A stretch of 64,000 nucleotides of DNA from Psammoneis japonica (Eukaryota), in contig QPGO01000104.1 in the NCBI GenBank assembly GCA_008632985.1, forward strand, positions 1-64,000, read 5' to 3'. Of this stretch, positions 13,500-15,900 are shown piece by piece (position 1 is the first letter of the stretch; the number at the start of each line of letters is the position of its first letter). Position numbers and translations under genes: made by a program. The notes below the pieces were generated by a model. The model worked only from the letters and a program-made list of their open reading frames with translations. It ran no database searches and was not told the origin of the DNA.

Positions 13500-15900
13500 C
13501 ATTTTAGGGGTGTCAAACGGCGAGCTCATTGTTGCAACATTGCGGCCATCATGAATGCAATGTTGCAACAAGTGGCTGCCGTGTCGGGATGGTCATCGCA
13601 CAGGACTGCTTGACAAATCTCAAGAGCTTTGTGAAGTTCCACCAAGGCTTCCTCAAACTTGCCCAGCTTGAAAAGAGTTGTGCCAAAGTTGTTGCAACTT
13701 GATGCCATGTTGGGATGATTCTCGCCCAAGATGGCTTTTCGAATGGCAAGAGCCTTGCGACATTCCACCAAGGCTTCCTCAAACTTGCTCTGATTGTTTG
13801 GAGCAAAACCAATGTTGTTGTAACTTGATGCCATGTTGGGATGATTCTTGCCCAAGACGGCTTGACAAATGGCAAGATCCTTGCGACATTCCACCAAGGC
13901 TTCTTCCAGCTTGCCCTGATCATCTAGAATCGATCCAATGTTGTTGCAACTTGTTGCCGTGTCGGGATGATCCTTGCCAAAGATGGCTTCTTTGATGGCA
14001 AGAGCCTTGCGATGTTCCACCAAGGCTTCTTCAAACTTGCCCTGATTGTGTAGAATCAATCCAATGTTGTTGCAACTTGATGCCATGTTGGGATGATTCT
14101 CGCCAAAGATGGCTTCTTCAATGGCAAGACACTTGCGACATTTGACCCCAAAGCATCCTCAAACTTGCCCAGACCACACAGAATCAACCCAATGTTGTTG
14201 CGACATGTTGCCATGTTGGGATGATTCTCGCCAAAGATGGCTTCTTCGATGGCAAGAGCCTTCCAATGTTCCACCAAGGCTTCTTCAAACTTGCCCTGAC
14301 TGTCTAGAATTGATCCAATGTTGTTGCAACTTGATGCTGTGTCGGAATGATTCTCACCAAAGACTGCTTCTTTGATGGCAAGAGCCTTGCGATGCTCCAC
14401 CAAGGCTTCTTCAAACTTGCCCTGGTCATTTAGAATCGATCCAACGTTGTTGTGACTCATTGTTGCCATGTCGCGATGATTCTCGCCCAAGATGGCTCAA
14501 CAAATGGCAAGAGCCTTGTGACACTCCACCAAGGCAGCATCGTGTTCTCCATTTCCACAGCAAATTAAGCCAATGTTGTTGGCAATGCGAGCAAAATCGA
14601 GCCACTCTTCATTTGTGGAGCCACTCCCATCCAGGACTTTTGCTTTCTCCCTCACAAATCCATCCAACACGTCTCGCACCCATTTCCGCAAGTGCACATT
14701 TACACTGTGGTTGGTTGCATTGCATCTGCCCTCTTGACTTTGGAGAAGACTGACAATGCATGCACAATCCACCTCCTCGCTGGCAGCTCCATTTTGAATC
14801 CTTGTGCCAGACAGGGCGTCGCAGAGATCATCAATGTTCTCTGCACCTTCCTCCTTCTGTTCAAAAACAAGTTCGTTCACAAGACTCTCCTTTTGATGCA
14901 GTGGCATGGCTGTGGTCACATTGCAATCATCTCCCTTTTGAGTGGCTGCAGCAATTTCAAAGATGCACCACACTTGAGAAAGATGCACTGGCGTTTCCCA
15001 TGGCGACATCATGCACACGATGCGAGACCAACATCCGTCACTCTGCTTTGAAACTCGTCTACAAACGATTCCGTTTCGACTGAATTGGAAGCTTTGATGT
15101 CATCAGCCACTTGATGCTGGTTGATGCAAAAGCAACAAATCCAAAAGCAGGTTCACTTGGGCTTGAGTTTTTGTGACTTGCACACTCCGACAATCACATC
15201 GACAATGTCGCCAATCGTGTGTCTGAGAGATGGGAGGTTCAACAATGCAAGCAAATTGACAAGCACAATGTTTTTAAAAGGGAAGCAATGCAAAGTGTGT
15301 CAATCAACGAAACTCACCCCCGTGCACAGCTCAGCATGTGAGCAGCATCTCCAACATTGTCCTCACCGTCCAACGCATGAACAAACGCGGCTCCTTTTCT
15401 TTCTTCAATGGGGCACGTCATGTCTCGACTCTTGCCACGAATGAATCCTTCCTTCTCATGCACATTTTCTAGAGAACGCACCTTGGAATGGTGACCAAGT
15501 CTCCAATCGTGCGAACGAATCTCCTTCGACAATCGATTCTGCAGGCAACAAACACTGACACCGCAGCACTTCAGATTGCCCTTGAACTCTGGGTTCTTCA
15601 TCTCAACCACTTGCATGGGATCACAAGCCGACTGATTTTCGCAATTGTCACGGCACTTTTTCTCTTTGATTTCCCCAACTGAGTTGACAATCAAATCTCC
15701 AGCATTCTTGATTGCATCGATGATTGGTGGACGGTTTTCATCCATCAGCCTTCTGACCGTCATGACAAACACAGGGATGCCTGAACCCAGCAGAGTGCCC
15801 CAATCCCGTTGATGATTGAAAGTCAACAAAGAAGAGGATGACTCCATCTTGCTTCCTGACTTCCAGAAATGCATGTTCAATTGTCACGGGAGGCACTTGG
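13500..15900 (-). pseudogene. Kinesin-light-chain-like TPR repeat protein pseudogene
   Basis: About 8 x 126-bp repeats (HPxxAxS[Y/C/H]NNIG...QGKFEEALVE[C/H]RKALAI) at about 13530-14560. N-terminal domain CPIEERKGAAFVH...MMSPWETPVHLSQVWCIFE. Probable intron at about 15223-15317. Confidence 0.9.

What the first reader, a model, noticed from the sequence alone, without database searches (positions are those of the whole stretch)
13500..14560. TPR pseudogene shows systematic Tyr->Cys/His
The canonical repeat reads S-Y-NNIG and E-Y-xKAL. Here it reads SC, SH or TC and VEC or VEH, with one surviving ASSYNNIG. TAY->TGY (Cys) or CAY (His) are exactly the two strand outcomes of A->G at TpA. Protein conservation fixes the direction independently of DNA comparisons, and shows that host multigene-family members are also hit.
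Basis: partly seen in the sequence, partly recalled or inferred. Interest (0 to 1): 0.75.

Follow-up and report, generated by a model that had tools for sequence, protein, structure and literature searches.

The report
Tyrosine-stripped dead diatom TPR gene
A dead copy of a diatom's own TIR-like/TPR gene has had nearly every TA step in its DNA rewritten to TG or CA, turning its tyrosines into cysteines and histidines, which shows that this little-known mutation process hits the host's duplicated genes as well as foreign DNA.

Summary
On the minus strand, 13526-15880 is a broken member (two TGA stops, two frameshifts, one retained GT-AG intron) of a diatom family with a TIR-like N-domain and TPR_10/12 repeats.

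- **Tyrosine loss:** one Tyr remains among about 750 codons, against a family median of 3.9%. At 23 positions where the family's commonest residue is Tyr (43-97%), the gene reads Y 1, C 12, H 6, R 2, F 1, L 1. Every C is TGY and every H is CAY.
- **Paralogues:** contigs from the same sample carry TAC where the window has CAC. Of the 27 transitions among the 40 differences shown (225 more were not shown), 13 are window TG/CA against paralogue TA and 8 are window TG/CA against CG. None runs the other way.
- **Setting:** the gene lies in a sharply bordered 16.7-kb island (830-17520) with 78 TA where 1049 are expected. Exons, intron and flanks are equally depleted, so the change happened in DNA.
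- **Second case:** a host duplicate in the window (42850-44182 against intact 30467-31821) shows 37 of 50 TA changed to TG/CA.

This scan has noted the same process on other DNA of this genome. A 2026 preprint describes it in Bigelowiella natans on integrated viral DNA. I found no report for diatoms or for host gene copies.

The parts
13526..15880 (-). Pseudogene of a diatom family with a TIR-like N-domain and TPR_10/12 repeats. 10 TA where 162.9 are expected. One Tyr in about 750 codons.
   Evidence: tblastn of family proteins maps four frame segments. Conceptual translation, composition, dinucleotides.
13529..14592 (-). TPR array: 8 units of 42 codons plus a truncated ninth. Tyr positions read Cys or His.
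13820..13822 (-). The only surviving Tyr codon (TAC) of the gene, in 'ASSYNNIG'.
15223..15317 (-). Retained 95-nt GT-AG intron (GTGAGT...CAG). Splicing restores the frame across the conserved SYSWGY motif, which here reads SCARGH. The intron itself has 1 TA where 7.6 are expected.
   Evidence: Sequence read. Family consensus. Dinucleotides.
15153..15155 (-). In-frame TGA where 63% of the family has Arg. A CGA ancestor is inferred, which would be a CpG transition.
14497..14499 (-). In-frame TGA at repeat position 32. Units 6 and 8 have CAA here, and paralogue contigs read A at the middle base.
15025..15026 (-). Frameshift between the -3 and -2 frame segments of the N-domain.
14147..14148 (-). 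Frameshift in TPR unit 4. This unit is 128 nt long where the others are 126.
830..17520 (.). TA-depleted island containing the pseudogene. 78 TA where 1048.8 are expected (o/e 0.07); CG o/e 0.60; TG 1.63; CA 1.61. The borders are sharp: TA is dense up to 810 and again from 17530.
10276..11172 (+). A second host-type gene relic in the same island: a Neprosin domain with 1 Tyr, 22 Cys and 17 His in 299 codons.
   Evidence: Pfam E 3.1e-40. Translation, counts.
42850..44182 (+). Hypermutated duplicate of the VOMI-domain gene region 30467-31821. It serves as an internal control pair.
30467..31821 (+). Unmutated partner of that duplicate. It carries an open VOMI-domain reading frame.

Best explanation
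The TPR repeats belong to a dead, intron-containing genomic copy of a diatom multigene family with a TIR-like N-domain followed by TPR_10/12 repeats. The copy lies inside a 16.7-kb chromosomal domain in which a DNA-level process has converted nearly every TpA to TpG or CpA, on both strands about equally. Ordinary CpG-to-TpG/CpA decay runs alongside it.

Tyr (TAY) is the only amino acid whose codons all begin with TA, so it is erased. TAY becomes TGY (Cys) when the A of the coding strand changes, and CAY (His) when the A of the other strand changes. ATA becomes ACA, CTA becomes CCA or CTG, and NNT|ANN becomes NNT|GNN.

Shown here: the direction of change, the dinucleotide specificity, the regional extent, and the fact that host gene copies are hit.

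Inferred, not shown: that the agent is an enzyme (most simply a DNA adenine deaminase, A to hypoxanthine, read as G) directed at silenced, probably cytosine-methylated chromatin, rather than triggered by sequence homology as such.

The process cannot create a stop codon from a sense codon (my reading of the code table, no call). It therefore disables by missense, and it also erases TAA and TAG. That is why the island is full of long meaningless ORFs closed only by TGA.
For: 1. Tyr positions. Across 23 positions where the family's commonest residue is Tyr, the pseudogene reads Y 1, C 12, H 6, R 2, F 1, L 1. All C are TGY and all H are CAY. In the N-domain, 0 of 7 Tyr columns are kept against 88 of 131 other conserved columns (Fisher p = 6e-4).

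2. Composition. Tyr is 0.13% against a family median of 3.9% and a minimum of 1.4% (n = 125). Cys is 5.3% against 2.2%.

3. Same-sample contigs laid at 80% identity or more. 125 contigs were laid in X1. Of the 40 best-supported differences shown (225 more were not shown), 27 are transitions: 13 window TG/CA against paralogue TA, 8 window TG/CA against paralogue CG, 1 window CG against TG, 5 other, and 0 window TA against paralogue TG/CA. These include 14454 (His CAC against Tyr TAC), 14912 (Thr ACA against Ile ATA), 14949 and 15032. Loose-end consensus sequences read S-Y-N-N-I-G with TAC.

4. Regional extent. Exons, the 95-nt intron (1 TA where 7.6 are expected) and the whole island 830-17520 (78 where 1049 are expected) are equally depleted. 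ORF-poor DNA outside islands keeps TA (52236-54540, o/e 0.69).

5. Internal control pair. For the VOMI-region duplicate, 50 TA in the normal copy correspond in the island copy to TG 20, CA 17, TA 2 and other 11. Of 61 CG, 44 became TG/CA. A pair of duplicates that both lie outside islands is symmetric: 31 of 58 TA kept, 14 against 10 changed in each direction.

6. Loss of function. The pseudogene has two in-frame TGA and two frameshifts, and 3 of 10 invariant N-domain residues are lost (Y to C, W to R, R to Q).

7. Precedent. TpA-only A:T-to-G:C hypermutation was measured in mutation-accumulation lines of Bigelowiella natans (bioRxiv 10.64898/2026.01.13.699255; abstract and Results read).
Against: - No enzyme, chromatin mark or de novo rate could be examined, because no genome is held and no RNA run was listed.
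- The relatives used for polarity are only 37-44% identical in the N-domain.
- His is a natural variant at the two TPR positions (10% and 17%).
- Two Tyr sites read Arg (CGC, CGT). Those need a second change that is not at a TpA.
- About half of the pseudogene's differences from family consensus, and 13 of the 40 listed differences from paralogues, are not TA- or CG-type.
- The paralogue contigs come from the sample that probably gave the window, so they are not independent of the assembly.
- No transposon domain was found in any island of this window. The link to 'silenced repeats' therefore rests on CpG depletion and on earlier notes from other windows.
Confidence: 0.75

Rival explanations
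1. Homology-triggered mutation, a true mirror image of RIP. The copy was marked for mutation because it is a duplicate of other family members, not because of where it lies.
For: - Both host sequences seen to be hit are duplicated. The TPR family has many contigs of 80% identity or more in the same sample, and the VOMI region has a partner in the window.
- Diatoms encode DNMT4 enzymes that group with fungal RID (PMC9998398, passages only).
Against: - Only one copy of the VOMI duplicate is mutated.
- Within the same duplicated segment, the part at 45260-46362 (against 31868-33011) is unmutated: 44 of 59 CG and 11 of 31 TA are kept. The border therefore falls inside the homology.
- The 5' part of the pseudogene attracts only one other contig at 80% or more, yet it is as depleted as the multicopy TPR part.
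- The island extends 16.7 kb through sequence with no repeat elsewhere in the window.
Confidence: 0.2
2. Untargeted neutral decay. TpA is intrinsically hypermutable everywhere in this genome, and islands are simply old DNA under no constraint.
For: - Even 'normal' regions have TA o/e of 0.4-0.9 and a mild TG/CA excess.
- The normal VOMI copy differs from the island copy by TG against CA at 21 sites, so it may also have lost some TA or CG.
Against: - The profile is bimodal, with borders sharp to within a few hundred bases.
- ORF-poor stretches outside islands keep TA at o/e 0.69-0.75.
- Two duplicates outside islands, 79% identical, show symmetric TA exchange.
- A 98.4%-identical tandem duplicate inside the island already differs mainly at TA/CG/TG/CA sites.
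Confidence: 0.1
3. RNA-level A-to-I hyperediting (ADAR-like) of a transcript, followed by retroposition of the edited copy.
For: A-to-G changes with a 5' T/U neighbour resemble ADAR's neighbour preference (recalled, not tested here).
Against: - The copy keeps its intron, and the intron and flanking DNA are equally depleted.
- Both strand outcomes occur in roughly equal numbers: 12 Cys against 6 His at Tyr codons, and the reverse ratio of 5 against 8 in the N-domain paralogue comparison.
- The tract is a contiguous 16.7 kb.
Confidence: 0.02
4. Sequencing or assembly artefact, or a functional gene that simply uses Cys/His at these positions.
For: All DNA evidence comes from one sample. H occurs at these positions in some predicted family proteins.
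Against: - Contigs of a public run match the window at 99% or more over the region (29 contigs).
- The pattern is codon-coherent and confined to islands.
- The gene has 2 stops and 2 frameshifts and has lost 3 of 10 invariant residues.
Confidence: 0.02

Closest known systems
TpA-restricted hypermutation of integrated NCLDV and virophage DNA in Bigelowiella natans (Mettrop et al., bioRxiv 10.64898/2026.01.13.699255; abstract and Results read)
   Same: - Changes are almost only A:T to G:C and only at TpA, giving TpG or CpA according to strand.
- The changes are regional.
- The long-term footprint is TpA depletion with CpA+TpG enrichment.
   Different: - That case is in a chlorarachniophyte, on single-copy viral inserts, and the rate was measured directly in mutation-accumulation lines.
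- This case is in a diatom, on an intron-bearing copy of a host multigene family (and on a second host duplicate), and is known only from the end state.
- Depletion here is far deeper: o/e 0.07 against Rho 0.45 for their NCLDV region.
- Here it is accompanied by CpG decay.
- The words diatom, pseudogene, tyrosine, paralog and multigene do not occur in its main text. Its supplementary tables of TpA-depleted CDS could not be opened.
Repeat-induced point mutation (RIP) of Neurospora and other ascomycetes (details recalled; search listing of PMC7296669 and passages of PMC9998398 seen)
   Same: - Dense dinucleotide-specific transitions on both strands.
- Confined to tracts that include duplicated genes.
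- Leaves dead copies with skewed composition.
   Different: - The direction is opposite. RIP makes TpA from CpA, whereas here TpA is destroyed.
- RIP creates stop codons, which this process cannot do (my reading of the code table, no call).
- RIP hits both copies of a duplicate. Here one copy of the VOMI pair is untouched and the border lies inside the duplicated segment.
CpG decay through 5-methylcytosine deamination in methylated repeats (general knowledge; diatom TE methylation per PMC9998398 abstract)
   Same: The same TG/CA products are seen. CG o/e is 0.47-0.60 in the gene and island, and 8 of the 27 listed transitions are window TG/CA against paralogue CG.
   Different: It cannot explain the loss of TA. 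In Tyr codons the ancestor is TAY and not CGY, as protein conservation shows.

Membership tests
Pfam TPR_10 / TPR_12 repeats | HMM score above the gathering threshold | tested here: met
   TPR_10 scores 172.3 bits (cut-off 27.5) and TPR_12 scores 137.9 bits (cut-off 30.1) for 13526-14086. TPR_10 scores 93.7 bits for 14056-14490.
Diatom family with TIR-like N-domain plus TPR (unnamed; annotated 'TPR protein' or 'kinesin light chain' in Seminavis) | Homology of the N-terminal domain to family members | tested here: met
   phmmer of 14500-15099 gave 456 proteins at E <= 1e-3, best 4.8e-35. The named top hits are from Attheya and Seminavis robusta. tblastn aligns the family collinearly from 15562 to 13547.
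Diatom family with TIR-like N-domain plus TPR | Intact reading frame and invariant N-domain residues | tested here: not met
   There are two in-frame TGA and two frameshifts. Of the 10 invariant columns of alignment A1, Y123, W125 and R208 are replaced by C, R and Q. It is a pseudogene of the family, not a working member.
TIR / HET-like fold for the N-domain | Structural or profile match to TIR or HET | tested here: inconclusive
   The model of P0016 has pLDDT 89.1. Residues about 115-306 align to SARM1, MyD88, RPP1, SpbK and other TIR domains at Z 5.8-6.8, which is a middling range. Pfam HET is below threshold: 14.3 bits against 22.5, E 0.054, in P0003 only.
TpA-targeted hypermutation (B. natans type) | Transitions A:T to G:C at TpA, both strand outcomes | tested here: met
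   18 of 23 family-Tyr positions read TGY or CAY. 13 of the 27 listed transitions are window TG/CA against paralogue TA, with 0 the reverse. 37 of 50 TA became TG/CA in the VOMI pair.
TpA-targeted hypermutation (B. natans type) | Confined to a genomic region, not genome-wide | tested here: met
   Island 830-17520 has o/e 0.07, with borders at 810/1051 and 17065/17530. Neighbouring gene regions have o/e 0.4-0.9.
TpA-targeted hypermutation (B. natans type) | Target is DNA of viral or foreign origin | tested here: not met
   The target is a host family member with a spliceosomal-type intron. No viral or transposon Pfam domain was found in 323 ORFs scanned (111, 110 and 102).
TpA-targeted hypermutation (B. 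natans type) | Elevated de novo rate in living lines | not testable with these tools
   This needs mutation-accumulation or pedigree sequencing.
RIP (fungal) | C-to-T at CpA, producing a TpA excess | tested here: not met
   TpA is depleted 14-fold and CpA/TpG are enriched.
RIP (fungal) | Both copies of a duplication mutated over the length of homology | tested here: not met
   One VOMI copy is normal and the other is mutated. The mutated tract ends near 45.2 kb, inside the duplicated segment.
ADAR-type hyperediting fixed by retroposition | Processed (intron-less) copy; one-strand bias | tested here: not met
   The intron is retained and is itself depleted. Both strand outcomes are present.

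The most novel reading that the evidence does not exclude
Diatoms possess an active, chromatin-domain-directed DNA adenine-editing defence that erases TpA. It acts not only on mobile DNA but also on surplus copies of their own fast-evolving TIR-like/TPR (immune-type) genes, so it shapes the birth-and-death turnover of host multigene families. It may act allele-specifically and still be running. Two hints point that way: two equal-length contigs of similar depth that differ at 61 of 479 sites, and near-identical repeat copies in this window that differ mainly at TA/CG sites.
Probability: 0.3. Interest if true: 0.85.

Novelty: new variant of a known kind. Interest (0 to 1): 0.6.

Why it matters
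The protein-level read-out gives a direction to the TA/TG/CA differences that needs no outgroup DNA. Conserved Tyr becomes Cys or His, while other conserved residues are kept two times in three.

The retained intron and the uniform depletion of exon, intron and flank place the process on DNA rather than RNA.

Together with the duplicate pair in the same window, the locus shows that the TpA-erasing process reaches host gene copies and occurs in a second SAR lineage. The only description I found covers viral inserts in a chlorarachniophyte.

There is also a practical consequence for annotation. Such islands lose TAA and TAG, so they fill with long false ORFs, and gene predictors may call dead copies as Cys/His-rich 'proteins'.

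Tried and rejected
- **Whole genome:** none is held, so same-genome paralogues could not be fetched as sequence.
- **The search for homologous proteins:** with the N-domain, both 'near' and 'longer' gave nothing. This is a limit of the word index, because the exhaustive search found 456 relatives.
- **Earlier scan notes:** look-ups by place near the window, by sequence and by the word TPR gave nothing.
- **Sequencing runs:** no RNA holder was listed, so expression was not examined.
- **Pfam on island ORFs:** ORFs of 100 aa or more across the window at E <= 1e-5, then 102 further or repeated island ORFs at E <= 0.01. The only hits in islands were Neprosin and TPR. Only 68 of the 257 island ORFs of 55-99 aa were scanned, all from 1053-9989.
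- **Protein atlas on the N-domain:** best score 0.79, a lead only.
- **PDB sequence search with P0016:** hit only its TPR tail.
- **tblastn of seven family proteins against the window:** no second family copy. All 35 hits outside 13400-15700 have E >= 0.41.
- **Codon table for the VOMI pair:** only 9 TA-containing codons were available. Tyr 5 became H 3, C 1, L 1. That is too few for a Leu/Ile/Val tabulation.
- **Cross-codon changes against family consensus** (such as K to E or N to D after a codon ending in T): I looked at these in the TPR units and did not pursue them, because the family consensus is too loose there.
- **Literature:** searches for a diatom description returned only the B. 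natans preprint as relevant.
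Full report
**The observation**

The minus strand of 13500-14560 encodes 42-residue TPR_10/TPR_12 repeats (Pfam). At the DNA level this is a 126-bp tandem array with 7.2 copies.

To see what is normal at each repeat position, I collected 144 ungapped repeat units from 69 of the 150 listed relatives.
- Position 4, the residue before NNIG: Tyr 74%, His 10%, Cys 3%.
- Position 24, the 'E-Y-xKAL' site: Tyr 43%, Phe 19%, His 17%, Cys 2%.

In the window the same positions read as follows.
- Position 4, units 2-9: H(CAC), C(TGC), R(CGC), C, C, Y(TAC at 13822-13820), C, C(TGT).
- Position 24, units 1-8: C, H, H, C, H, C, C, L, with codons TGT, CAT and CTT.

The stretch has 6 TA where 72 are expected, with TG at 1.78 and CA at 1.50 times expectation. 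The description is therefore correct and far from chance. The one caveat is that His alone is not diagnostic, because intact relatives sometimes carry it.

**What the gene is**

An exhaustive protein search with the upstream ORF (14500-15099) found 456 relatives at E <= 1e-3. The named top hits are diatom proteins from Attheya and Seminavis robusta, annotated 'TPR protein' or 'kinesin light chain'. They have a conserved N-terminal domain of about 300 residues followed by TPRs.

tblastn of these proteins maps one collinear gene from about 15562 down to 13547 in four frame pieces. Reading the DNA shows that one apparent break is a 95-nt GT-AG intron at 15317-15223. Removing it restores the frame exactly across the family's invariant SYSWGY motif, which here reads SCARGH.

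The true defects are:
- two frameshifts, at 15026-15025 and 14148-14147;
- an in-frame TGA at 15155-15153, where 63% of the family has Arg, so a CGA ancestor is inferred;
- an in-frame TGA at 14499-14497.

Three of the ten invariant N-domain residues are replaced (Y to C, W to R, R to Q). It is a pseudogene.

A confident model of an intact relative's N-domain (pLDDT 89) aligns over residues 115-306 with many TIR domains at Z 5.8-6.8. Pfam HET is only sub-threshold. I therefore call the domain TIR-like as a lead, not as a membership.

**Tyrosine loss across the whole gene**

The conceptual protein has one Tyr in about 750 codons (0.13%). The family median is 3.9% and the minimum 1.4% (n = 125). 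Cys is 5.3% against 2.2%.

In an alignment of the N-domain with 75 relatives, none of 7 Tyr-conserved columns keeps Tyr (3 C, 2 H, 1 R, 1 F). By contrast, 88 of 131 other conserved columns are kept (Fisher p = 6e-4).

Adding the two TPR positions gives 23 family-Tyr positions: Y 1, C 12, H 6, R 2, F 1, L 1.

Other TA codons behave as predicted:
- a conserved Ile is now Thr (ACA);
- Ile after a codon ending in T is now Val (GTT);
- two Thr after a codon ending in T are now Ala;
- one Leu CTA in the repeat is CCA and another is CTG.

**Direct DNA evidence from paralogues**

One public DNA run holds the stretch. I laid its contigs, and those of two runs of the same sample, on 14380-15900 at 80% identity or more. 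125 contigs were laid in X1, most of them diverged copies.

Of the 40 best-supported differences printed (225 more were not shown), 27 are transitions:
- 13 are window TG/CA against paralogue TA;
- 8 are window TG/CA against paralogue CG;
- 1 is window CG against paralogue TG;
- 5 are other transitions;
- none is window TA against paralogue TG/CA.

Site 14454 is the His-CAC codon of unit 2, and eight contigs read TAC there. Sites 14912, 14949 and 15032 confirm the inferred ATA-to-ACA, ACA-to-GCA and ATT-to-GTT changes. Loose-end consensus sequences read S-Y-N-N-I-G with TAC.

These contigs probably come from the same sample as the window. They show paralogues, not independent confirmation of the assembly.

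**The setting**

The window is bimodal. Gene regions carrying DAGK, VOMI, F-box, protein kinase and RPS3Ae genes have TA o/e of 0.4-0.9 and CG near 1. Islands have TA o/e of 0.0-0.2 and reduced CG.

The pseudogene's island runs from about 830 to 17520, with 78 TA where 1049 are expected. Its borders are sharp. The intron has 1 TA where 7.6 are expected. ORF-poor DNA outside islands keeps TA at o/e 0.69-0.75.

No transposon or viral Pfam domain was found in the island ORFs scanned. The only recognisable genes in this island are the TPR pseudogene and a Neprosin-domain relic with 1 Tyr, 22 Cys and 17 His in 299 codons.

**A control pair in the same window**

Self-comparison shows that 30467-33011 is duplicated at 42850-46362.

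- The part at 42850-44182 lies in an island. Of 50 TA in the normal copy, the island copy has TG at 20, CA at 17 and TA at 2. Of 61 CG, 44 are TG/CA.
- The adjoining part at 45260-46362 lies outside the island and is not mutated.
- Another duplicate pair, with both copies outside islands, shows symmetric exchange.

So a second host gene copy has been hit. Only one copy of the pair is affected, and the border falls inside the homologous segment.

**How it most likely works**

The data show a DNA-level, region-bound conversion of TpA to TpG/CpA, with CpG decay beside it. Both strand outcomes occur. At Tyr codons there are 12 Cys and 6 His. In the N-domain paralogue comparison the coding-strand ratio is 5 TG to 8 CA.

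Intron retention and uniform depletion of the flanks exclude editing of a spliced RNA followed by retroposition.

My reading of the code table, with no call behind it, is that changing TA to TG or CA never turns a sense codon into a stop, and that it removes TAA and TAG. This fits two observations: both in-frame stops are TGA, and the island carries long overlapping ORFs in all frames.

The remaining steps are inference. By analogy with the proposal made for B. natans, I infer an enzyme, most simply a DNA adenine deaminase. From the co-occurring CpG loss and the border inside the duplicate, I infer that it is directed by chromatin state rather than by homology.

Surviving TA are not random. 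Across the window's islands, survival relative to normal DNA depends on context:
- ATAT: 0;
- ATAC/GTAT: 0.004;
- CTAG: 0.19;
- CTAA/TTAG and TTAA: about 0.33.

This fits the gene. The Tyr TAT at position 24 (context A-TA-T) is lost in all 8 units, while the Leu CTA at position 11 (contexts CTAG, CTAA, CTAC) survives in 4 units.

**Comparison with what is known**

The closest description is the 2026 preprint on Bigelowiella natans. I read its abstract and Results; its supplements are closed. It reports TpA-only A:T-to-G:C hypermutation of two integrated viral regions, measured in mutation-accumulation lines. It does not mention diatoms, pseudogenes or tyrosine.

Fungal RIP is the mirror image in chemistry and differs in targeting, as the membership test sets out.

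Five full-text searches found nothing for diatoms.

Earlier agents of this scan reported the same signature on transposons elsewhere in this genome. What this locus adds is a host multigene-family member with its intron, polarity fixed by protein conservation, and same-sample paralogues that still carry TA.

**Left unexplained**

- Two Tyr sites read Arg (CGY), which needs a second change that is not at a TpA.
- Two 479-nt contigs cover 15391-15869 at similar depth (35 and 30.2). One is identical to the window and the other differs at 61 sites without gaps. I could not tell whether the second is the other allele or a paralogue.

Noticed in passing
window 10276-11172 (+): A Neprosin-domain ORF (Pfam E 3.1e-40) inside the same island has 1 Tyr, 22 Cys and 17 His in 299 codons. 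It is probably a second hypermutated host-gene relic, and its frame probably stays open only because TAA and TAG have been erased.
   Followed up: partly
window 30467-33011 versus 42850-46362: A segmental duplicate. The part of the second copy that lies in an island (42850-44182) has 37 of 50 TA changed to TG/CA and 44 of 61 CG changed to TG/CA. The part beyond about 45.2 kb (F-box ORF region) is unmutated, so the island border lies inside the duplicated segment.
   Followed up: yes
window 431-826, 33742-34138, 37224-37619 (inverted): A 396-bp MITE-like element with 25-nt terminal inverted repeats. It is TA-rich and sits at or inside island edges. Copies 1 and 2 are 94% identical. Of their 24 substitutions, 10 are TA in copy 1 against CA/TG in copy 2, 4 are CG against TG/CA, and 6 form three TG-against-CA sites.
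   Followed up: partly
window 8734-9181 versus 9175-9622: A 441-bp tandem duplication, 98.4% identical, inside the island. Six of its 7 substitutions are at TA/TG, CG/TG, CG/CA or TG/CA sites, which suggests both decay processes continued after a recent duplication.
   Followed up: yes
all islands of the window (about 36 kb): Survival of TA depends on its neighbours. ATAT has 0 left against 722 TG/CA-type equivalents and ATAC/GTAT has 1. CTAG, CTAA/TTAG and TTAA survive 0.19-0.34 as often as in normal DNA. This hints at a preference for R-T-A-Y.
   Followed up: partly
window 15391-15869 (contigs of run X1): Two contigs of identical length (479 nt) and similar depth (35 and 30.2) cover the same interval. 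One is identical to the window and the other differs at 61 positions without gaps. It may be the other allele or a paralogue.
   Followed up: no
islands generally, e.g. window 12000-16500: Long overlapping ORFs occur in all six frames (82 ORFs of 30 aa or more in 4.5 kb). With TAA and TAG erased, only TGA closes frames. This is a trap for gene prediction.
   Followed up: partly
window 2481-4013: A degenerate tandem array (self-matches offset by about 180-190 bp and its multiples, 65-69% identity) inside the island. It has no Pfam match.
   Followed up: no
window 36001-42000: Strong GC skew (+0.15 to +0.40) and a 691-codon ORF (39252-41324, minus strand) with internal repeats of about 126-168 bp spacing. 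It has no Pfam match and its nature is unknown.
   Followed up: no
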